From positions 1 to 53,394 of the IMG/VR virus record IMGVR_UViG_3300027757_000008: a stretch of 53,394 nt of DNA. One strand, written 5' to 3'. The position numbers were made by a program, and so were the translations under genes. This DNA comes from a virus (taxonomy: Duplodnaviria; Caudoviricetes). The notes under the pieces are model-generated. The model was not told where the DNA came from and made no database searches. It saw nothing but the letters and a program-made list of their open reading frames with translations. This document shows, in pieces, positions 3,960 to 40,348 of this stretch (position 1 is the first letter of the stretch; each line of letters begins with the position of its first letter).

Positions 3960-6900
3960 TTATTCTTGTTCTACTCCGCTGATTCCAGAAACATTGTGCA
4001 ATGTACTATCTGAGTAGTTCACATTTACGCCAAAGATTTCAATCTGCTCGGTAGTGTTATCAAAGTTAAACTCAGCCTTAAGCCAATGGCCGCGCATTGG
4101 GTCGCCGTCAATCTTTGAGTTTGCTTTTACAACTATCGTGTAGTCTAAGTCAATCAAAGATGCGTCGCTAACGACAATTGAGTTTTTACCAGAAATGCTG
4201 CTAAGGGTAGCAGACATATCAATCAAGTCTCCAGAAGAGTCAAGCCGCCAAAGCGAACCTCCAATCGTTAAAGGAAGTCGGTTAACAGCGTTTGTAAATG
4301 ACACCGTGTTTCCATCAATTGAGGAAACAATGCCAATCGCCATCCACTCGTCGTTTCCTGAATCTGAACGAGGAATCGGAGAGAAGTATTCGTCTTCCTT
4401 TTTTGTCATAACCTCAGCAACAAGGTTAGATGACTGCGACAAAGTGCTAAACGTTACGTCGGCCGGAGCGTTGCCCTCAATGCTCAGGGCGCTGAAAGTC
4501 TTAACCCCAGAGCGTGGGCGATTGCTGATGATAGTGAATCCGCTGTCGTATTGAGCACCAAAGAACTCTGCGTGCTGAGCATTCACCTCGGCCTCATATA
4601 GCAAATTGGCGGTTCCAACGTTTTTAACGTGGAAGTAAGAGTTATTCATTGCGGCGTAGCCATCAGCATTTACGTCAGATAGATGCGTCCAGGCTCCAGC
4701 GCTTGTGCTGTACACAGCGCTCTTGAAGTCATAGTCGGTCGTAAATGGGTATATCCCACCAATCGGAGATGCGCCGACGGATAGCGTATGGTAACTGATT
4801 GTAACCTCCCCGTGATATGGGTCAAAACCCATACGCACGTGACGAGTGTTCGAGCCTTCATACGTTCCGCTGTTTCCAACAACGCGGTCACTGAAGTCTG
4901 TAAGTGTTCGCGCCTCCGTTGAGAAGTGCTTTTTTAATCCGTTGTTTGAAATGTTTGTAAGGCCCTTTGCCCCAATGGAGTACACTGCTCCACGCTGCAC
5001 GTCAAAGAAAATAACATTCTCATCAGTGTCAACAAATGCACCGCGGTCTTGGATTCCGCAGGTTGTGGGCATATATGTAGGCTGATTTAAAAAATCAGTA
5101 CTAAGACCGATAAATTCAGTTCCGCCATCAATGATATTTCTATTTACTGGAGAGAATCCAACAGCATCCTCCTGTATAAGGACAATGTAGTTAGATTTGT
5201 CAACAAGGCCGTAAATACCCCCGCTATTAGCCTCAAAGTCATACCAGTTGGCAAGACCATTGTTAAATGAAGAAAGCGTGTTAAACGGGCTGTCCTGAAC
5301 TAGCGGCTCTGAATACGTAACCGATGAGTATCGGTTCTGCTTTCTCTCCCCTGGAATTAAACCATATGGCTTACCCTTGGAATAGTATCTAGTGTCCTCT
5401 TTAAAGTCGTAATAACGAGAGGATTCAACAAACCGAACAAACGTGTCCATCTCCTCGGTATATGCGTCGATAAGGCCATTTGTCTTTGCCGCCGTCTGCC
5501 ACTCAAATCCAATAATCGTACGTGGCCTATACCAAATGTCTCCACCTTCAATTTTATGCGCAGCGGTGTGCTCACTTCCGGCGTCATAAACGTCGCCAAT
5601 AGCGTAATAAACACTAGGCTCAACTTCTACTTGTTTGTTGTATATTTCGACAAGGCATTCGTTTGCCCATAGGTCTAGATTTCCCGCTACGTCTGGCTGG
5701 CTGAATCCATTTATTGTTGGAGAGTCAATTAAAATAAAATCGCCAACTTTTCTAGCGTCCCTGTCTGAAGTGGCACCACCGTCTGGAATAATTGGAGATG
5801 AAGCGGTATCTTCATATGTAACAAGGTCTACAACCTTAAAATCAATTCCATCTGGATATACAGTTCCTCCAGTTGTATTTTTGTATGATATTACTCGTAG
5901 GCGGTCGCCCTCAGAAAATTGATATTGTGTTTTAGAACCTTCTGAATCCACATAAGAGTTTGGCGCGCCTTGAAGGCCGCGCAATGCTAAGTGAATGCGG
6001 TCGCCGTCACCAGCGACATAAAAGGCTTCAGTTATTTGATACTGAAGAAACTCGGGGCCATTGCCACTGTACACAAAGAAGAACTTGTCTGCCCAGGTCG
6101 GGCGAGACGATGTCAACTGAATGTTTACGTGAGCGGAGCCTAGGTCGTTTCCAAATCGTTCGCTCTTTCGGCGCACATAAACGTCTCCAAGTTGTTGGAC
6201 GCCGCTTGTGCGGCCATACTTGTCCTGATAAACAACACCAAATGAGTGGTTCTTTCCAGTTTTAAAAGATTGTTCACCTTGGCTGTCGTATAAATATGTG
6301 TTGTCGTCAACAAGTCCGCTATTGTCTGTTGTCACAGAGGTGGTTCCGGTAATAATTGGATTAGCAGAAGAGTTGTCCTGATACGCGGTAGATTGATACG
6401 TTGGCTCTGGAAGGTTATATCCATTGGGGTCCAATATAACTTCTGAAGAAATTAGGTCATACTCGTCCATCTTGAATTCTATATCAAGAACTGGCTTACC
6501 CAAGAAAGGCGCCGACGTCGCCGAAGCCGTATAAGTGCTGGCAGTAGCGCTAAAGGTGACCCGTCCGCCATAATAAACGTCATACGTTGAAGTTCCACTC
6601 ACTATGCGAGTTGCATACGAAAGTTCGTCGGTCTTAACTGGAAGTTCTATATTTTGAAATCCAGAAACAATTCCAGAACCAAAAGATGCGGCAAAGGCGG
6701 CTCGGTTTGCACTAGCGGGAACCTCAATTGGAGCGCTGTAGTCAAAGCCAGCAACTGAAAACTTAGTATATACGCTTTGGCTTGCAATAAGCGTAGTCCC
6801 CTGGTATATCTCACGAAGCCTAGATACGTTCTCAATTGAGTTTATTTTACTAACAAGAACGTCAAACAAAACAGTTCCGCCAAGCGATGGTACGTTTGCA

Positions 6901-8012
6901 ATGTTAGAAAGGTCAAATCGAAGAACCATCCTGCTTGACTGCCACGATGTCTTTAGGGCTGCGGGGATTGCCTTTGGAACGTATTCGTTATCGTAGTTGA
7001 CGGTGATGTTTGCACTAACCGAGCCAACATCAAACCCTTCAGTGTAGTTTCCATAAACAAGTCGTCCGGCAGAAATAGTCTGTGCTTTTGCTGTGAGTGG
7101 AACTGAATCCTGAAGTTTATTTGAATCGTTTGAAGCAAGTAACTCTCCAAGTTTATTGTTGTAGAAGTCAAAAACAACAGTTGTGTCGTTGTCCTTTTCT
7201 TCAACCAGAGAGAACGGCATAGAAGAGTTCTTCCGAACATACAGGCGAACCTTTTCTACGGCGTCAGTAGAACCTTCTACGGATACTTGTAGTTTATTAT
7301 ATAACTTACGATATCCGTCACTTGAGGATGTTGCGTTAAGGGTATTTGGGCTTGCAACCAATGGAGAGTATGCGCCAAGCGCAGACTCCTCTTTATCTCG
7401 GTATACGTACTGAGCAGCAAATTGAAACGACAAACCAATAAGGTCGTTTGAGTCAATTGAGTAGTCAGTTTGAAACTCGCAAAACGGAGTAGATGGTTGC
7501 TTTTTTACGACATTGAGTTCAATCTGCTTTTCAGAAATCGTTGACCCGGCGGGATATCCGCCAAGTTTAGCCTTTGTTACGCTTATCTTTTTGGGGTTTG
7601 AGCGACCATCAGTAAAGTACAAATACACTTCATCGTCGTAAATTACTCCATCGATATTGAGGTAGTCGTCGTTTCGGAACTCTAGGGCCGCCTCCTGCAT
7701 AAGTAAAACAACCTCTGATGAGTTTGTGTCGTACTCGTAAATGCAGTGATTATCTAAGTTGTTGTACAAAAAGATGTACACCTTGTTAACTGCGTCAAAA
7801 GAATACGTTCCAACAACTCGATTCTGCCCTATGGGTAGCGCAGTGTCAAGCGTAATTGAAGAATTTCCCTTGATGTTTTTGATAATACCTCCGTTACCGC
7901 CTTTGTCTGTAGCAACGCGAAAGTTGTTCGCATCGGCGAACTCAACACTTTGTAGGACTTTTTCGTCGCTATCCTTGTTTAGGTAACGTGGTGTAAGTTT
8001 ATCAATAGCCAT
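3960..8012 (-). CDS. Tail stabilisation/nozzle (muzzle) protein, crAss-like, 1350 aa
   Basis: N-terminal LNKDSDEK..EFADANNFRV, then YFTDG...PKKI, FQFAAQYVYRD, VPLTAKAQ...RLVYGNY, FGVVYQDKYGR and C-terminal KKEDEYF / GDPMRGHW motifs; beta-rich; follows the ring-protein genes. Confidence 0.75.
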   Translation of the reverse strand: MAIDKLTPRYLNKDSDEKVLQSVEFADANNFRVATDKGGNGGIIKNIKGNSSITLDTALPIGQNRVVGTYSFDAVNKVYIFLYNNLDNHCIYEYDTNSSEVVLLMQEAALEFRNDDYLNIDGVIYDDEVYLYFTDGRSNPKKISVTKAKLGGYPAGSTISEKQIELNVVKKQPSTPFCEFQTDYSIDSNDLIGLSFQFAAQYVYRDKEESALGAYSPLVASPNTLNATSSSDGYRKLYNKLQVSVEGSTDAVEKVRLYVRKNSSMPFSLVEEKDNDTTVVFDFYNNKLGELLASNDSNKLQDSVPLTAKAQTISAGRLVYGNYTEGFDVGSVSANITVNYDNEYVPKAIPAALKTSWQSSRMVLRFDLSNIANVPSLGGTVLFDVLVSKINSIENVSRLREIYQGTTLIASQSVYTKFSVAGFDYSAPIEVPASANRAAFAASFGSGIVSGFQNIELPVKTDELSYATRIVSGTSTYDVYYGGRVTFSATASTYTASATSAPFLGKPVLDIEFKMDEYDLISSEVILDPNGYNLPEPTYQSTAYQDNSSANPIITGTTSVTTDNSGLVDDNTYLYDSQGEQSFKTGKNHSFGVVYQDKYGRTSGVQQLGDVYVRRKSERFGNDLGSAHVNIQLTSSRPTWADKFFFVYSGNGPEFLQYQITEAFYVAGDGDRIHLALRGLQGAPNSYVDSEGSKTQYQFSEGDRLRVISYKNTTGGTVYPDGIDFKVVDLVTYEDTASSPIIPDGGATSDRDARKVGDFILIDSPTINGFSQPDVAGNLDLWANECLVEIYNKQVEVEPSVYYAIGDVYDAGSEHTAAHKIEGGDIWYRPRTIIGFEWQTAAKTNGLIDAYTEEMDTFVRFVESSRYYDFKEDTRYYSKGKPYGLIPGERKQNRYSSVTYSEPLVQDSPFNTLSSFNNGLANWYDFEANSGGIYGLVDKSNYIVLIQEDAVGFSPVNRNIIDGGTEFIGLSTDFLNQPTYMPTTCGIQDRGAFVDTDENVIFFDVQRGAVYSIGAKGLTNISNNGLKKHFSTEARTLTDFSDRVVGNSGTYEGSNTRHVRMGFDPYHGEVTISYHTLSVGASPIGGIYPFTTDYDFKSAVYSTSAGAWTHLSDVNADGYAAMNNSYFHVKNVGTANLLYEAEVNAQHAEFFGAQYDSGFTIISNRPRSGVKTFSALSIEGNAPADVTFSTLSQSSNLVAEVMTKKEDEYFSPIPRSDSGNDEWMAIGIVSSIDGNTVSFTNAVNRLPLTIGGSLWRLDSSGDLIDMSATLSSISGKNSIVVSDASLIDLDYTIVVKANSKIDGDPMRGHWLKAEFNFDNTTEQIEIFGVNVNYSDSTLHNVSGISGVEQE

Positions 8013-8017
8013 CTGGC

Positions 8018-8824
8018 TTAGTATTTAGGCGATTGGCGGAAGTTCTTCCGGATGGTAAACAATGCTTCTTCCTTGGAGAACGAATTCATACGTGCGTTTG
8101 CACGGCGCAGTTCATTGTAATACTCTTGACGAGCGCGGGCCTTTTCATTATATGGTACGTCGGACTTGCGCTCAATAATCTTATAGTAGATGTATTGACG
8201 AAGCGCCTCTTCGCAGTACACGTGGATGCTTGGATTGCTCGAAAGAGCCTCGTCGGCAACATACTCAATAGTAACCTTGTCAAGCGTGTAGTCAGTGGCA
8301 ATCTCAATTCGGTTCTGGTCGTAGTTAATTCGGAACGTTGCTTCCGCACGGCCTCCGCCATATCCGTATTGCCCACCCTCAGACGCTTCGTAAACATACT
8401 GAACGTAAGGGTAGTTTTCTGAATCTGCGCCAGTGTTTGCAATACCAGTCTTGTTATCAACGCGGTCATACACGCCGTCGTTGTTTGAGTCTACTGGGTT
8501 GCCGTTTGAGTCAGTGGCGTAAACCATAGACATATTTATATTCTTGTTCTCTTTAAACGTGTAGAACAAGCCGTCAGAGCCGCCATAGCCAATGCGAAGG
8601 AAGTCAACGAAATCGTCAGGTAACTCGACCGTTGCGTTGTCTGCATTTACGGTAAGGTTGACAGACTTAATGCGCTTCATAGCATCAAAGCCAAGTTCAC
8701 GAGCGCCTCGTAGCGCTAAATTGTGAACATAGTAGTCAGTTGCATTAGACGCATAGTCGTCTCCGCTCATACCGAGCAGAAAATCATTAACAACCTCCTT
8801 AATAGTTACTACGTTTCGTGCCAT
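8018..8824 (-). CDS. Tail ring/structural protein, 268 aa
   Basis: LPDDFVDFLRIG and IHVYCEEALRQYIYY motifs, resembling crAss-like ring proteins; synteny. Confidence 0.65.
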   Translation of the reverse strand: MARNVVTIKEVVNDFLLGMSGDDYASNATDYYVHNLALRGARELGFDAMKRIKSVNLTVNADNATVELPDDFVDFLRIGYGGSDGLFYTFKENKNINMSMVYATDSNGNPVDSNNDGVYDRVDNKTGIANTGADSENYPYVQYVYEASEGGQYGYGGGRAEATFRINYDQNRIEIATDYTLDKVTIEYVADEALSSNPSIHVYCEEALRQYIYYKIIERKSDVPYNEKARARQEYYNELRRANARMNSFSKEEALFTIRKNFRQSPKY

Positions 8825-35430: not shown

Positions 35431-35452
35431 AGGTATTTAATTATATTATATG

Positions 35453-35480
35453 CAAATATACGTATTATATACTAATTTTG
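35453..35480. promoter_or_regulatory. Overlapping divergent Bacteroidota promoters
   Basis: Minus-strand TATATTTG (35453-35460) and plus-strand TAATTTTG (35473-35480). Confidence 0.65.
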
Positions 35481-35503
35481 CAATTGTATCTAAATCGAAT
35501 ATA

Positions 35504-35953
35504 ATGAATAAAGAGAAACTGCAACAGCGAAAGCAGTTCAGGGACATCATCTATAAGGCGGACCCACCGCCTGCTGACTACCTGTGGAATTTTTCAGTTG
35601 TCATAGACTATTGTATGAAGCGCTATGACCTGCGCGAATCCCAAATCAAACTTATGCTGTTTGTCTACTCTATGGAGTCCTTCCTGTTTAAGCCTATGGC
35701 GCAGAAGATGAACCGCAGCCCGATTAAACTCTGGGAGAAGGTAGCCCGAGACCTAGTAGACAGAGACTTCATAAAAGAAGAACTGTACTCAAAGGGGTAC
35801 AAGAAGGAGTTCTATGAAACCTACGAGCCACACACCACCACCCCCGGAGTGATGTCCAGACGATGGGCACTCTCCACAAAAGGAAGGCAGTTTGTTAGTA
35901 AGTTTTATCAGTACCTAGAGGGCTCAAGGGCAATGAACCCTGACGTGCTATAG
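35504..35953 (+). CDS. Winged-helix (MarR-like) DNA-binding protein
   Basis: YDL.ESQIKLMLF.Y...L...DFI...WALSTKGRQFV winged-helix pattern; ATG 35504 follows the plus-strand promoter. Confidence 0.6.
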   Translation: MNKEKLQQRKQFRDIIYKADPPPADYLWNFSVVIDYCMKRYDLRESQIKLMLFVYSMESFLFKPMAQKMNRSPIKLWEKVARDLVDRDFIKEELYSKGYKKEFYETYEPHTTTPGVMSRRWALSTKGRQFVSKFYQYLEGSRAMNPDVL

Positions 35954-36206
35954 CCCCGCCGCGAACTGGGAACGCTAATCAATACTGCGTATGTGATTAA
36001 CACCACAACAACAACTGCAACATCTGTTCAAAACCATTACCGTTTTGTTTATTACTTTTGTCGTAACTTCGCAAAGTGGCAACGGAGTAACAACATAAAG
36101 AAGTCAACAGCGTCTTCAGTCACTCCCCCTTCTGAGTGAGTGTCACCCACGACACGACCACTCGCCACACAGTCAAAATCACCCCATACTATACCCCGTT
36201 CACAAC

Positions 36207-36228
36207 AGGCCCCGAGAGGGGCCTTTTT
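36207..36228 (+). terminator. Intrinsic terminator
   Basis: AGGCCCC-GAGA-GGGGCCT followed by TTTT. Confidence 0.75.
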
Positions 36229-36229
36229 C

Positions 36230-36925
36230 GTGTTCCTAAAACTCCCGATATACACCATTAAATAGGAAATCTAAGTCTCAACCCCACCGGGCCCAATTGC
36301 CTCCAGGAAACCCAAAAAAAAGTACCAAAAAAGGGGGATATAAACGTAAATCCTGTAGAGTTATACGTGCCTGCGGGATTCTACAGCGGCGCCAACGTTC
36401 ACGCGCGCAACCCGAAACGGATTTCCAAACCCCACCCCCTGACCCCCAGGCGTTTGCCCAAAATAGTTTGGCGATTTTCATTTGATGTTTAAACACGAAC
36501 TACCCCCCCGGTCGATTCAATCGGTACCCTACCCCCCTTCCGAAACGATTGTCTGCCTTCCCCCTAAAGTTTTGAAATGAGTGCAGTCATTCACACATAC
36601 GGAACTATCCCCCACGCCATCTATCCTCCCCTGTCCTGTGTCCTGTATCCTCCCCCTGTCTACCTGATTGGGGTAAGTCCGCCCCCGGTGCAGTGGTGAT
36701 ATATGTACCCATTTGCGGCCGTGTGTGCATAACCCGGGCCTAACTTCTGCCCCTGGATGCTCTCCAGGAACGCTCTCCAGTTCTCCAGGAACGCAGTTTG
36801 CCCCCGATTTGGGTGGTGCTGACCTGGAGCGGGTGAAATTTCTGAAAATTTTTTTCCTTCGGAAACCCTTTGGTGGCGCGGGTTTGGTGGGGGCGGCGAA
36901 AAAAAAGTGAAAAAAGTTTGGGGGA
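36230..36925. other. Non-coding, homopolymer- and repeat-rich region; candidate genome end/packaging or origin region
   Basis: No credible ORF; C-runs then G/A-runs; direct repeats TCTCCAGGAACGC x2 and TATCCTCCCC.TGTC x2; lies between the late arm and the early promoter. Confidence 0.45.
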
Positions 36926-36928
36926 AAG

Positions 36929-36959
36929 TTTGGTGGGTAAGAAATCCTGACTACATTTG
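36929..36959 (+). promoter_or_regulatory. Strong early host-RNAP promoter (-33 TTTG, 19-nt spacer, -7 TACATTTG) with upstream A-tracts
   Basis: Exact match to the Bacteroidota sigma-A consensus. Confidence 0.85.
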
Positions 36960-36961
36960 TA

Positions 36962-37535
36962 TCAGAGTCAAGGACGACGCCGGCGAGACCGGGACATAAG
37001 AAGGCCGACTGACTCCTCCCCGAGGCCGCAAGGCTGACGCCGCAAGGTGCCGGAGAGACCCGACGAGAGAGCGGGTGAGCGGGGGGCCGACCACAGCCCC
37101 ATACCGCCAAGCCATAAGCCCGATGTAGCAGTCAAATGGTTCCTCTCTCCATCGTCTTACACATAAAGGTGCGCGACGACTGACCCCGAGCGCGGCGGTG
37201 ATTGAGTCCTTCATCACCGACCGCGGCGTTCTGCCGCTCGGACAATCAGTCAACGCCGTTGATAGTAAGCCGGGGGGAGCGCCTTGGCGCATTGGAACCA
37301 AGTTCATATCCCCGGACGAACAGGGAAACGCCCGGTGATAGACGATGCTTTAGGGGCGACGAAAATCCCTCTGCGACCTTCTCATAACCAAGGATATGAT
37401 GAACACGATATTAGGACAGGCCTAACGCAGACCACATATAGTACTCACATTCCCCTACTGACCTCCTCTTCCAAAGGTGGCGCTCCGACTCTCACTACGA
37501 GATGGACGGACATCGGTTCGCGACCGGCGTCACCA
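36962..37535 (+). ncRNA. Large structured leader/ncRNA (~570 nt), family not recognised
   Basis: GC-rich; starts at the early promoter; many nested helices with GCAA/GAGA loops; long-range CATCGTCT/AGACGATG pairing; 3' tRNA-like domain. Confidence 0.7.
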
Positions 37536-37573
37536 CTACTTAAATTCACTCACTCACTAACCCCCCCCGAGTT

Positions 37574-37780
37574 ATGCGTTTCATTCCCGCTAAAGAATCT
37601 GATTTGTTCAAGTTGTCTTGCACTACCCGCAAATCTTCAAGCCGTACCACATCCGGCGCCAAGTACATTGCTAACGACCGCGGCCTTGTATCCAAGGCTA
37701 AAATTCAGTTTGTTAAAGATGCGATTGAAACTGAAGAGAATATCTTCGTGAATTCACGCCTTGTTTATGTCTGTAAATAA
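37574..37780 (+). CDS. Early hypothetical protein, 68 aa
   Basis: First ORF after the leader RNA. Confidence 0.55.
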   Translation: MRFIPAKESDLFKLSCTTRKSSSRTTSGAKYIANDRGLVSKAKIQFVKDAIETEENIFVNSRLVYVCK

Positions 37781-39236: not shown

Positions 39237-39452
39237 ATGGGATACTACATTGTTGAAAACGAACACGCCACTAACTACAGGAACCTTGTTCTTGACGGCC
39301 TTGACCACGCCGAGGCAGTAGCCGAAGCCCTTGAAGAGGCAACGGGTTACCCTTGGTATGTAACTCCGCTTGTGTTCGCCAATGAACTTGGCGGCATTGA
39401 CAAAATAATTAACGAAGACATTGACCCAAAATGGACAAAGAGAAAGAAATGA
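39237..39452 (+). CDS. Early hypothetical protein, 71 aa
   Basis: ORF track; operon packing. Confidence 0.55.
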   Translation: MGYYIVENEHATNYRNLVLDGLDHAEAVAEALEEATGYPWYVTPLVFANELGGIDKIINEDIDPKWTKRKK

Positions 39453-39685
39453 ACAAGTATATAATTGTTGTGAGCCGATACCAATCGGTATCGCTTATAG
39501 TTGAGGCCGAGGATATTGACAAAGCCGAATGGATAGCCCACCAAGCCGCGGAGGTTGATGGGTTCTTTAGTGATGACAATGACATCATTGAAGTTATTGA
39601 CGCCTTGGATGAAGACCAAGAGCCGACCCTTATTAAGGAAGAGCCTCACTTGCGCCAATCTGATGGCGGATGGGACTTTCAATAA
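39449..39685 (+). CDS. Acidic DpnD/PcfM-like small protein
   Basis: KY...V.......VEAED..KA...A pattern; ATGA overlap start at 39449. Confidence 0.5.
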   Translation: MNKYIIVVSRYQSVSLIVEAEDIDKAEWIAHQAAEVDGFFSDDNDIIEVIDALDEDQEPTLIKEEPHLRQSDGGWDFQ

Positions 39686-39692
39686 CTAAACC

Positions 39693-39733
39693 GGGTGTAT
39701 GGTATGTGTGAGGGTTCGACTCCCTCACGCCCA
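39693..39733 (+). ncRNA. tRNA minihelix-like element (acceptor stem plus T arm only)
   Basis: GGGTGT...GAGGG-TTCGACT-CCCTC-ACGCCC-A; intergenic. Confidence 0.65.
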
Positions 39734-39784
39734 CTAAATAAATAAAATACGAACCGATGCTACGGCATCACAATTCTCTGCGCT

Positions 39785-40348
39785 ATGCAAAACCGAATGA
39801 CCCAATTGCTCAACGACAAGTACACCGCTGAACAACGCGCCGCCGTACTGATTGACTACTTCGCCAACAACGGCGATACGCTCCCTTGCTCCGGCTTTGG
39901 AAATCCTTTGAACTTTAAGAGCGGGATTGTTGTTGTCCCCTCTTCGCGGATAGCCGCTCCTCTGCGCTACTTTTGGGAAGGCTTGGTATCTAACTTCTTT
40001 GTCGAGTTCGGGGTTAAACTTGACTATGTTGATAAGTTCTACGAAGAGGCCGTAGAGGAACTGAAGAAGAACAACCCCGAGGGCGCGAGCATTTGTTGGG
40101 AGGATGTCATCCTTCAGTATGTCCTCTTGGGGCACCCGATTATCATTAACGATAACGACCAAGTAATTGGCGCGGCGACCCTGTTCCACCGGGACATCAT
40201 TGGTAACTTCGTTAAGGCAGTAGCCTCTAACGATAACACGGAACTCGCCTTGCGTTGGCTACAGGAGTTCCAAGTATGTCAGCACGACGCTATCGTGACC
40301 GACGGCTTCTTGCAGTTTTGTGTATATGGTGACCTTATCTTCGGGTAA
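39785..40348 (+). CDS. Conserved phage hypothetical protein, 187 aa
   Basis: CWEDV...DA...D.FLQ..VYGDLIFG C-terminal motif. Confidence 0.6.
   Translation: MQNRMTQLLNDKYTAEQRAAVLIDYFANNGDTLPCSGFGNPLNFKSGIVVVPSSRIAAPLRYFWEGLVSNFFVEFGVKLDYVDKFYEEAVEELKKNNPEGASICWEDVILQYVLLGHPIIINDNDQVIGAATLFHRDIIGNFVKAVASNDNTELALRWLQEFQVCQHDAIVTDGFLQFCVYGDLIFG

What the first reader, a model, noticed from the sequence alone, without database searches (positions are those of the whole stretch)
36962..37535. ~570-nt multi-domain structured RNA as the first product of the early promoter
Seen: directly after a perfect Bacteroidota promoter is a GC-rich tract with no credible ORF that folds by eye into nested domains. 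GAGTCA/TGACTC encloses CCGG-CGAGA-CCGG. CTCC/GGAG encloses two GCAA-tetraloop hairpins. There are ACCCG/CGGGT and GCGG-GGGGC/GCCCC-CCGC stems. A long-range 8-bp helix CATCGTCT(37150)/AGACGATG(37340) encloses GACTGA/TCAGTC, CCGAGCG/CGCTCGG, CGGTGA/TCACCG and a CCGGGG/CCCCGG junction. TCTGCG/CGCAGA closes a further junction. Inference: a large ncRNA of no family I recognise (size class of the phage RNAs ROOL/GOLLD), or a put-like cis antiterminator, or a decoy for host defence, made immediately on DNA entry.
Basis: partly seen in the sequence, partly recalled or inferred. Interest (0 to 1): 0.85.

Follow-up and report, generated by a model that had tools for sequence, protein, structure and literature searches.

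The report
Phage early leader RNA, tRNA-like end
A marine phage starts its early genes with a roughly 570-base folded non-coding RNA that related phages also keep, and it ends in a copy of the top half of a tRNA, which probably tells host tRNA-trimming enzymes where to cut.

Summary
There is no credible ORF (longest ATG frame 15 aa), and the tract is GC-rich (0.58 against about 0.45).

- **Folding energy:** the whole region folds no better than shuffles (z -0.84). Two parts do: the central domain 37148-37349 (z -3.41) and the 3' end 37473-37540 (z -3.03).
- **Relatives:** nine lineages of related uncultured ~60-kb podophages, probably of Flavobacteriia hosts, carry a non-coding RNA of 232-658 nt in the same slot, between a TAnnTT(T)G box and the first early ORF.
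- **Covariation:** it supports a 5' hairpin next to ACAUAAGAAG and a GNRA hairpin (89% paired against 64% shuffled).
- **The 3' element:** a 7-bp acceptor-like helix stacked on a 4-5-bp T-like arm, then N-CUA, ending 16-35 nt before the start codon. A second copy lies at 39693-39735, and relatives carry more copies between early genes.
- **Known families:** no Rfam family matches the window or 29 related loci.

My reading is a modular early-operon leader RNA cut off at a tRNA-like processing signal. No RNA data exist, so the cutting is inferred and the role of the released RNA is unknown.

The parts
36929..36959 (+). Promoter-like site: TTTG, 19-nt spacer, TACATTTG. The Bacteroidota -33/-7 consensus is recalled, not tested.
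   Evidence: Pattern match. A TAnnTT(T)G-like box lies 3-6 nt before the conserved UGUCRA/AUCR start in relatives.
36964..37056 (+). 5' domain. It holds the possible outer helix GAGUCA/UGACUC, hairpin P2 CCGG-CGAGA-CCGG, the conserved ACAUAAGAAG and C-rich CGAGG motifs, GNRA hairpin H3 GGCC-GCAA-GGCU followed by UGAC, and a second GCAA hairpin found only in this window.
   Evidence: P2 and H3 covary: 11 matches, 8 distinct rows, 89.3% paired against 63.9% shuffled (0/500), and 6 of 8 pairs changed on both sides. The outer helix is not significant. Energy z is -0.04.
37057..37147 (+). Two local hairpins, ACCCG/CGGGU and GCGG-GGGGC/GCCCC-CCGC. They are lineage-specific.
   Evidence: Present in the MFE fold, z -0.52. 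No alignable homologue exists.
37148..37349 (+). Central multi-helix domain closed by the long-range helix CAUCGUCU/AGACGAUG. It contains a CUUG-loop hairpin and the short motif UCAACGCCG..GAUAGUA, which is shared with the sister lineage.
   Evidence: MFE -83.8 against -68.0±4.6 kcal/mol, z -3.41, 0 of 200 shuffles. The sister lineage and the 232-nt version also have a central domain closed by a long-range helix. The CUYG hairpin is compensated in the sister lineage.
37350..37472 (+). Weakly structured stretch that includes UCUGCG/CGCAGA.
   Evidence: Present in the MFE fold, z -0.49. No comparative support.
37476..37538 (+). tRNA top-half mimic, module 1. It has a 7-bp acceptor-like helix GGUGGCG/CGUCACC, a 30-nt inserted hairpin, a T-like arm UCGG-UUCGCGA-CCGG, then A and CUA.
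   Evidence: Covariation on 23 matches: 95.1% paired against 71.6% shuffled (0/500), and 10 of 11 pairs changed on both sides. A strict pattern scan gave 12 hits, all at this slot, against 0-2 in shuffles. Energy z is -3.03.
37539..37573 (+). G-poor, apparently unstructured 35-nt leader before the start codon.
   Evidence: The distance from the module to the ATG is 16-35 nt in all 12 strict hits.
37574..37780 (+). First early ORF, 68 aa (MRFIPA...). It is conserved in relatives and has no known family.
39693..39735 (+). tRNA top-half mimic, module 2. It has helix GGGUGU/ACGCCC, T arm GAGGG-UUCGACU-CCCUC with a canonical T loop, then A and CUA. It lies in the 99-nt gap before ORF 39785-40348.
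   Evidence: Its 21-nt 3' half is identical to the 3' end of tRNA-Trp genes in bacterial genomes.

Best explanation
**What it is.** The region encodes the non-coding 5' leader of the plus-strand (early-type) operon of an uncultured ~60-kb podophage. The phage has a crAss-type muzzle protein and most likely a Flavobacteriia host. The leader has three modules:
1. A promoter-proximal domain kept in most relatives: a hairpin abutting ACAUAAGAAG, a C-rich CGAGG motif, and a GNRA hairpin followed by CUGAC.
2. A GC-rich central domain. It is thermodynamically stable and closed by a long-range helix, but it differs in sequence and length between lineages.
3. A 3'-terminal mimic of the tRNA acceptor/T-arm 'top half' followed by N-CUA, 35 nt before the first start codon.

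**How it probably works.** The same tRNA-like module recurs between some downstream early genes here and in relatives. I infer that the modules are read by the host's tRNA-processing endonucleases. RNase P would cut at the 5' side of the acceptor-like helix, and RNase Z would cut after the discriminator. Cutting would release the leader as a discrete RNA of about 510-570 nt and leave the downstream messages with short, unstructured 5' ends.

**Shown and inferred.** Shown: conservation of the slot, non-coding nature, covarying helices, tRNA likeness, and repetition of the module. Inferred: transcription from this promoter, early timing, the cuts, and the enzymes. Unknown: what the released leader RNA does.

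**Confidence.** The confidence given (0.45) is for the whole statement including the processing step. That this is a conserved, structured, non-coding leader RNA with a tRNA-like end I hold at about 0.85.
For: **Same slot in relatives.** Nine lineages carry an ORF-free stretch of 232-658 nt between a promoter-like box and the first early ORF. They are the window, the L005 group, L133/G003, L125, L121, L138/L223, the L179 group, the L194 group and L212/L213.

**3' module.**
- 23 model matches (17 distinct rows) are 95.1% paired against 71.6% shuffled (0/500). Ten of 11 pairs change on both sides, and slid controls give 43-51%.
- A strict scan required a 7-bp helix, a 4-5-bp stem closed by G-C, a 7-nt loop, then N and CUA. 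It found 12 hits in 405,368 nt over 16 sources, all on the sense strand at the end of the leader, 16-35 nt before the ATG. Twenty shuffles gave 0-2 hits.

**tRNA likeness.**
- The 21-nt 3' half of module 2 is identical to the T arm plus acceptor 3' strand of tRNA-Trp genes in 6 of 9 bacterial genome hits. ARAGORN, run on 6 of the 9, found the tRNA in 3. The other 3 carry the same tRNA sequence by eye.
- Module 2 fits the GGTTCRANYCC motif that was used to find t-elements (PMC1920247, passages read).

**Repetition.** Extra modules lie in early intergenic gaps at window 39693-39735, L125 816-755 and 1889-1825, L179 285-232, L121 836-778 and L133 2514-2455.

**5' domain.** P2 and H3 are 89.3% paired against 63.9% shuffled (0/500), with covariation score 0.567 against 0.194.

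**Strand.** G-U pairs occur in 9 of 56 cells of the 5' helices. One is a G-U closing pair kept in 5 distinct rows. These would be A-C mismatches on the other strand.

**Central part is structured.**
- Window z is -3.41.
- In the sister lineage, 9 of 165 predicted pairs change on both sides, against 2.3±1.3 in shuffles (0/500).
- In the 232-nt version, 3 of 70 pairs do.

**Precedent.** tRNA-like elements without a working anticodon arm act as RNase P/Z signals for mRNA ends in plant mitochondria (PMC1920247).
Against: - **No RNA evidence.** All 20 public runs that hold the stretch are DNA runs. Transcription, ends and cuts are therefore untested.
- **Imperfect T loop.** The loop of module 1 (UUCGCGA) has C where tRNAs and the t-element motif have A. 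Other lineages have AGCGARA.
- **CUA tail.** The tail is CUA, not CCA. By recollection, C74 is part of the RNase Z anti-determinant, so efficient RNase Z cutting is not assured.
- **Few modules.** Only 2 modules were found for about 38 plus-strand ORFs in the window, even with unfiltered scanning. This is not general punctuation.
- **Weak reach of the model.** Model R2 found only 1 weak match in five complete related genomes. The model does miss long-insert versions.
- **No ribozyme swap.** No relative carries a self-cleaving ribozyme in the same slot, which would have supported 'cutting signal'. There were 0 Rfam hits in 29 loci.
- **Weak energy and outer helix.** The whole-RNA folding energy is ordinary, and the outer 5' helix is not significant.
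- **Limits of the covariation tests.** The alignments were fitted to the models, and many rows are close relatives.
Confidence: 0.45

Rival explanations
1. An unprocessed cis-acting 5' UTR. The folded leader stays attached to the first early mRNA. It acts as a 5' stabiliser, as a protein- or ligand-binding regulator, or as a translation-start organiser for a host without Shine-Dalgarno pairing.
For: - The RNA always directly precedes the first ORF.
- The module ends at a narrow distance (16-35 nt) from the ATG, and the spacer is G-poor.
- No terminator-like site separates the leader from the ORF.
- The 5' motifs are conserved next to the transcription start.
Against: - A leader of 230-660 nt with a hypervariable middle is more than a stabiliser needs.
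- The tRNA-like module also occurs in short gaps between downstream genes, where a 5' cap role makes no sense without cutting.
Confidence: 0.2
2. An anti-defence or host-takeover decoy. The RNA, or its tRNA-like ends, soaks up host factors early in infection. Candidates are tRNA-targeting defence nucleases or tRNA-modifying toxins.
For: - It mimics a tRNA.
- It sits at the head of the early-type operon.
- The central domain diverges much faster than the flanking genes. Those stay about 73% identical while the RNA gives no blastn match.
- Lineages differ by insertions and duplications.
Against: - The modules lack an anticodon arm and a CCA end, which by recollection are the usual targets of such systems.
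- No defence-related context was found.
- Fast divergence also fits weak constraint.
Confidence: 0.12
3. A DNA-level element. The repeated modules are recombination or insertion cassettes for shuffling early genes (PeSL-like), or the region belongs to an origin or packaging site. Under this reading the RNA folds are incidental.
For: - Near-identical phages differ by whole ORFs inserted right after the module. L004 has +138 aa and L003 has +87 aa.
- L125, G003 and L223 carry extra ORFs, each with its own module.
- The upstream 1 kb holds repeats and a conserved 180-bp block.
- PeSL cassettes in T4-type phages are a precedent (PMC2839356 and PMC4122927, listing and start of abstract only).
Against: - Base pairing is kept by compensatory changes and by strand-specific G-U pairs. 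Selection therefore acts on a folded single strand.
- A recombination role could coexist with an RNA role.
Confidence: 0.08
4. A put-like processive antiterminator. The promoter-proximal hairpins bind the transcribing RNA polymerase and make it read through terminators.
For: The conserved hairpins and single-stranded motifs start within a few nucleotides of the presumed transcription start.
Against: - The consensus scan found no convincing plus-strand terminator inside the operon. The one strong terminator (36207-36224) lies upstream of the promoter.
- The RNA is far larger than the two-hairpin put element (recalled).
- The tools hold no model for put.
Confidence: 0.05
5. Mostly spacer. Only the 3' module and a short 5' motif are functional, and the remaining ~430 nt are drifting GC-rich filler.
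For: - The whole-region z-score is -0.84.
- The central sequence is not conserved between lineages.
- One lineage manages with 232 nt.
Against: - The central domain has z -3.41.
- The sister lineage's central helices show compensatory changes.
- The RNA's GC content is raised relative to the genome in all eight lineages measured (0.50-0.58).
Confidence: 0.08

Closest known systems
t-elements of plant mitochondria (Forner et al. 2007, PMC1920247; passages read)
   Same: - Both are tRNA-like folds built from an acceptor-like stem and a T arm, without a working anticodon arm.
- Both are embedded in long transcripts just before or after coding regions.
- t-elements were proposed, and partly shown, to direct RNase P and RNase Z cuts that make mRNA ends.
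- Module 2 fits the GGTTCRANYCC motif used to find them.
   Different: - This is a bacteriophage, not an organelle.
- The tail is a conserved N-CUA.
- Module 1 and several relatives have a non-canonical 7-nt loop.
- No mapped RNA ends exist here.
mascRNA/menRNA tRNA-like elements at the 3' ends of MALAT1 and NEAT1 (Rfam RF01684; biology recalled)
   Same: The architecture matches: a long structured non-coding RNA followed directly by a tRNA-like element, where cutting at that element would define the 3' end of the long RNA.
   Different: - That is a eukaryotic nuclear system.
- RF01684 scores only 12.3 bits against a gathering score of 42.5 on module 2, so this is not a member.
- A coding operon follows here.
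Phage T7 early region: long leader and RNase III sites between early genes
   Same: In both, a podophage early polycistronic transcript from host-type promoters has a non-coding leader before the first small gene, and structured processing signals lie between early genes.
   Different: - The signals here look like tRNA halves, not RNase III hairpins.
- Only some gaps carry one.
- The leader has its own conserved 5' fold.
ROOL and GOLLD large ornate RNAs (bioRxiv 10.1101/2024.12.08.627333; listing and start of abstract seen)
   Same: - Both are large, GC-rich, multi-helix non-coding RNAs linked to phages.
- Neither has a known function.
   Different: - No Rfam hit was found.
- Length is not conserved (232-658 nt).
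- Only the ends are shared between lineages.
- The RNA lies in an mRNA leader rather than standing alone.
PeSL promoter/stem-loop cassettes of T4-type phages (PMC2839356, PMC4122927; listing and start of abstract only)
   Same: Both are short repeated regulatory motifs that flank variable early ORFs and mark sites where closely related phages gain or lose genes.
   Different: - The motif here is a covarying tRNA-like fold rather than a promoter plus terminator.
- A promoter component was not tested.

Membership tests
Canonical tRNA gene | Cloverleaf with an anticodon arm, detectable by a tRNA finder | tested here: not met
   ARAGORN found 0 genes in the window. It found none at the modules in 14 related loci.
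Canonical tRNA gene | T loop fitting GGTTCRANYCC (motif as given in PMC1920247) | tested here: inconclusive
   Module 2 (GGGTTCGACTCCC) fits. Module 1 (CGGTTCGCGACCG) has C at the A position.
Canonical tRNA gene | 3' N-CCA end, or a discriminator followed by unrelated sequence | tested here: not met
   A conserved N-CUA follows the helix in all 12 strict hits, because the scan required it. It is also seen in modules found without that requirement. L138 is the exception, with CAA.
Any Rfam 15 family, including ROOL, GOLLD, tmRNA and hammerheads | Covariance-model score at or above the curated gathering score | tested here: not met
   0 hits in the window and 0 hits in 29 related loci. Permissive search of 36000-37700 gave only noise at E 0.46-6.3.
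mascRNA-menRNA (RF01684) | Score of at least 42.5 bits | tested here: not met
   12.3 bits, E 5.2, on 39694-39731.
tmRNA | tRNA-like domain plus tag reading frame; Rfam score of at least 47 bits or an ARAGORN call | tested here: not met
   Only the 17-nt T arm matches, at 11.3 bits. ARAGORN found none.
t-element-type processing signal (functional class) | Acceptor-like helix stacked on a T-like arm, kept by selection, with no anticodon function | tested here: met
   The helix plus stem total 11-13 bp.
t-element-type processing signal (functional class) | Transcript ends coincide with the element's borders | not testable with these tools
   No RNA run holds the sequence.
put-type antiterminator RNA | Acts on terminators downstream in the same operon | tested here: inconclusive
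   The consensus scan shows no convincing plus-strand terminator inside the operon. The scan is crude, and no put model is available.
PeSL-type mobile regulatory cassette | Repeated motif flanking ORFs that differ between close relatives | tested here: inconclusive
   ORF insertions lie right after the module, and extra ORF-plus-module units exist. The promoter part was not tested.

The most novel reading that the evidence does not exclude
This is a new family of large phage non-coding RNAs whose 3' end is made by tRNA-type processing, a bacterial-virus counterpart of the MALAT1-mascRNA arrangement. The released ~0.5-kb RNA, with its fast-evolving central domain, would be an early effector against the host, acting as a decoy, sponge or scaffold. 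The N-CUA tRNA half would be a dedicated phage 'cut here' signal.
Probability: 0.2. Interest if true: 0.85.

Novelty: new variant of a known kind. Interest (0 to 1): 0.6.

Why it matters
**If the cuts are real.** Marine Bacteroidota phages would be borrowing the host's tRNA-maturation enzymes to shape their early messages and to release a sizeable folded RNA at the very start of infection. tRNA-like processing signals are established for organelles and for eukaryotic long non-coding RNAs. My full-text searches found none described for phage operons.

**What the finding provides.**
- A new RNA family with defined, covarying ends and no Rfam counterpart.
- A simple sequence signature for finding more members: a 7-bp helix, a T-like arm, and N-CUA 16-35 nt before a start codon.
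- A clean in-vitro test with purified RNase P and RNase Z.

**Annotation.** The junction after the module is also a hotspot where close relatives gain different small genes. This matters for annotating accessory early genes in uncultured phages.

Tried and rejected
- **Rfam.** The gathering search of the window gave 0 hits. The permissive search of 36000-37700 gave only noise. On module 2, only sub-threshold mascRNA and tmRNA T-arm matches appeared.
- **Cultured phages.** blastn of 36000-37600 against 50,697 phage records found no match. The nearest named relative by terminase (MW202828, 46% aa) has a different gene layout and was not informative.
- **Motif scans of viral contigs.** ACATAAGAAGGCCG gave 68 stretches and TCAACGCCGNNGATAGTA gave 41. 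nhmmer showed that only the four already known contigs were real homologues.
- **nhmmer on terminase-anchored loci.** A profile of the window plus its sister lineage found only the sister contigs and one weak hit in L133.
- **RNA evidence.** No RNA holder was listed among 23 runs, and the 20 holders are all DNA.
- **Coding hypothesis.** Rejected.
- **Outer 5' helix P1.** My by-eye covariation did not survive a permutation and cognate/non-cognate test.
- **Ribozyme swap.** Earlier notes of this scan suggested that a self-cleaving ribozyme might replace the module in relatives. I found 0 Rfam hits in 29 loci.
- **Model R2 on five complete related genomes.** One weak match. The model misses long-insert versions that the pattern scans found.
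- **attP-like remnant of a tRNA 3' end.** Rejected. The 5' strand is present and covaries, there are several copies per genome, and no integrase was seen.
- **tmRNA-like and true tRNA readings.** Rejected.
- **MAFFT alignments across lineages.** They mis-register the helices. Model-fitted alignments were used instead, and these lean towards the structure.
- **Uninformative literature search.** One early full-text search was too broad and returned nothing relevant.
- **Supplements.** Supplementary files of the cited papers were not seen.

Full report
**Setting**

The window is a 53,394-bp IMG/VR virus record, estimated 88% complete.
- Genes on the minus strand up to 34861 are structural. They include the large terminase and the portal, a crAss-type muzzle protein and two tail fibres of about 1,700 aa.
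- From 35450 onward the genes run on the plus strand. They include many small ORFs, Thy1, a PDDEXK protein and a DnaB-like primase-helicase.
- The nearest cultured phages by terminase infect Flavobacterium and Cellulophaga, at about 40% identity.
- Between a conserved 167-aa ORF (35450-35953) and the first small plus-strand ORF (37574-37780) lie 1.6 kb without a credible gene.
- A strong terminator-like hairpin sits at 36207-36224.
- The candidate RNA occupies the last 600 nt of this gap.

**The observation**

The tract is GC-rich and non-coding. The longest ATG frame is 15 aa, and tblastx among eight lineages shows no frame-specific signal.

- The full 574 nt fold no better than dinucleotide shuffles: z -0.84, with 19 of 100 shuffles as good.
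- Split into domains, the central part 37148-37349 is clearly more stable than chance (z -3.41, 0 of 200). This part holds the long-range CAUCGUCU/AGACGAUG helix and its nested stems.
- The last 68 nt are also more stable than chance (z -3.03, 3 of 200).
- The other three pieces are ordinary (z -0.04, -0.52 and -0.49).
- The promoter pattern is one of three matches in the window against 1.64 expected, so it is not significant alone. A TAnnTT(T)G-like box recurs at the same place in relatives.

**Homologues**

Anchoring on the neighbouring proteins and on the terminase brought in related contigs.
- Flanking genes stay about 73% identical at the DNA level. The RNA region gives no blastn match even to the closest lineage.
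- Nine lineages nevertheless have the same arrangement: promoter-like box, an ORF-free stretch, then the first early ORF.
- The stretch is 232 to 658 nt long.
- Similarity between lineages is confined to about the first 80 nt and the last 40-200 nt.

**The 3' end**

All nine lineages end the RNA in the same way. There is a 6-8-bp helix whose sequence differs completely between lineages, for example GGUGGCG/CGUCACC here against GCCACAC/GUGUGGC, GGGUGUC/GACACCC and GGAGGUG/CACCUCC elsewhere. A variable insert follows, then a 4-5-bp stem closed by G-C with a 7-nt loop. The 3' strand of the helix then follows with no spacer or one nucleotide, and after it come one nucleotide and CUA.
- On 23 model matches, 95.1% of cells pair against 71.6% in shuffles (0/500). 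Ten of 11 pairs change on both sides, and slid controls give 43-51%.
- A strict pattern scan found 12 hits in 405,368 nt, all at this slot on the sense strand. Shuffles gave 0-2 hits.
- Geometry and sequence are those of a tRNA acceptor/T-arm 'top half'.
- A second copy in the window (39693-39735) has a canonical T loop. Its 21-nt 3' half is identical to the 3' end of bacterial tRNA-Trp genes.
- It is not a tRNA, tmRNA or mascRNA family member.
- Relatives carry further copies in gaps between early genes. With unfiltered scanning the window has only these two.

**The 5' end**

Five lineages share a hairpin that abuts (C/G)ACAUAAGAAG. They also share a C-rich CGAGG motif and a GNRA (once UUUAA) hairpin followed by CUGAC.
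- On 11 matches (8 distinct rows) the two hairpins are 89.3% paired against 63.9% shuffled (0/500). Six of 8 pairs change on both sides, although 19 of 500 shuffles reach that count.
- A G-U closing pair kept in five distinct rows points to the plus strand.
- Three lineages (the L179 group, the L194 group and L212) lack the ACAUAAGAAG motif. L121 has the motif without the hairpin.

**The middle**

The middle cannot be aligned between lineages, but it is not featureless.
- In the sister lineage, four distinct variants that are 91-97% alike show 9 of 165 predicted pairs changed on both sides. Shuffles give 2.3±1.3 (0/500) and slid controls give 0-2. Four of the nine fall in one hairpin. The structure was derived from the same sequences, which inflates this test.
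- The 232-nt version has a central domain closed by a 9-bp long-range helix. The sister has one closed by a 12-bp helix. These parallel the 8-bp helix in the window.
- One relative has a ~170-nt insertion flanked by a short duplication.

**Mechanism**

I read the whole as the leader of the early-type operon. The tRNA-like module would be a processing signal for RNase P and/or RNase Z.
- This is how t-elements work in plant mitochondria (PMC1920247).
- It is also how the tRNA-like element behind MALAT1 works (recalled).
- T7 offers a functional parallel, with RNase III sites (recalled).

Nothing here shows a transcript or a cut, because all 20 holders of the sequence are DNA runs. Further points against:
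- The loop of module 1 is non-canonical.
- The tail is CUA.
- There are few modules per genome.
- No relative has a ribozyme in the slot.

The role of the released RNA is unknown. The decoy, unprocessed-UTR, DNA-cassette and antiterminator readings remain open, with the weights given under rival explanations.

**Earlier notes of this scan**

A word search returned several unchecked notes from other phage genomes. They describe tRNA top-half mimics in early leaders and between early genes, some interchangeable with hammerhead ribozymes. I used them only as a lead. I tested the ribozyme-swap idea here and found no support for it in this clade. Look-ups by place and by sequence returned nothing.

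**Novelty**

No Rfam family matches. Three full-text searches found nothing on tRNA-like minihelices in phage leaders. The kind of element, a tRNA-like processing signal behind a structured leader, has precedents elsewhere. I therefore class it as a new variant of a known kind.

Noticed in passing
window 39693-39735: A second tRNA top-half mimic with a canonical UUCGACU loop and an A-CUA tail lies in the 99-nt gap between ORF 39431-39685 and ORF 39785-40348. Its 21-nt 3' half equals the 3' end of tRNA-Trp genes of several bacterial genomes.
   Followed up: yes
window 36360-36537: This is the only block of the 1.6-kb gap that keeps about 73% DNA identity with the sister lineage. It contains the near-palindrome GATGTTTAAACAC. 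In a complete 63-kb relative (G003) the 91-bp end overlap of the contig falls inside the homologous block, so it may lie at or near the genome terminus, packaging site or origin.
   Followed up: partly
window 36207-36224: A strong terminator-like hairpin (AGGCCCC-GAGA-GGGGCCU followed by a U run) follows the conserved 167-aa ORF. That gene therefore looks like a separate transcription unit from the leader.
   Followed up: no
window 36620-36800 and 36873-36889: The tract holds C-rich short repeats (CTGTCCTGT/CTGTATCC) and a 13-nt direct repeat TCTCCAGGAACGC present twice. The motif GGCGCGGGTTT lies about 80 nt before the RNA start. CTGTATCC-type repeats and (C/G)GCGCGGGT recur upstream of the RNA in relatives, so they may be regulator or origin sites.
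   Followed up: partly
L004:8460-8876 and L003:8451-8714, against L005:8413-8467: Phages 95-97% identical in the RNA differ by a whole extra ORF (138 aa or 87 aa, unrelated to each other) inserted about 20-30 nt after the tRNA-like module. L125, G003 and L223 carry extra ORFs with their own module copies. This junction is a gene-insertion hotspot.
   Followed up: partly
L125, L133, L121 and G003, between the module and the ATG: A second conserved spacer element, a small hairpin GACCC-ACCAC-GGGUC followed by ACAAAUUCAAA, precedes several early start codons in one clade.
   Followed up: no
L005:8067-8099 and 8162-8194: The sister lineage's RNA contains an internal 33-nt direct repeat (GGTACGGATACATTAGAATTCACG.CC), which forms two similar hairpins in the consensus fold.
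   Followed up: no
window 3960-8012 (minus strand): A 1,350-aa protein matches the crAss-virus muzzle protein families (PF25731, PF25729), linking this ~60-kb marine podophage group structurally to crAss-like phages.
   Followed up: no
L144:14405-14495: ARAGORN calls a 91-nt tRNA-Thr in a more distant relative, but Rfam at gathering score reports no tRNA there.
   Followed up: no
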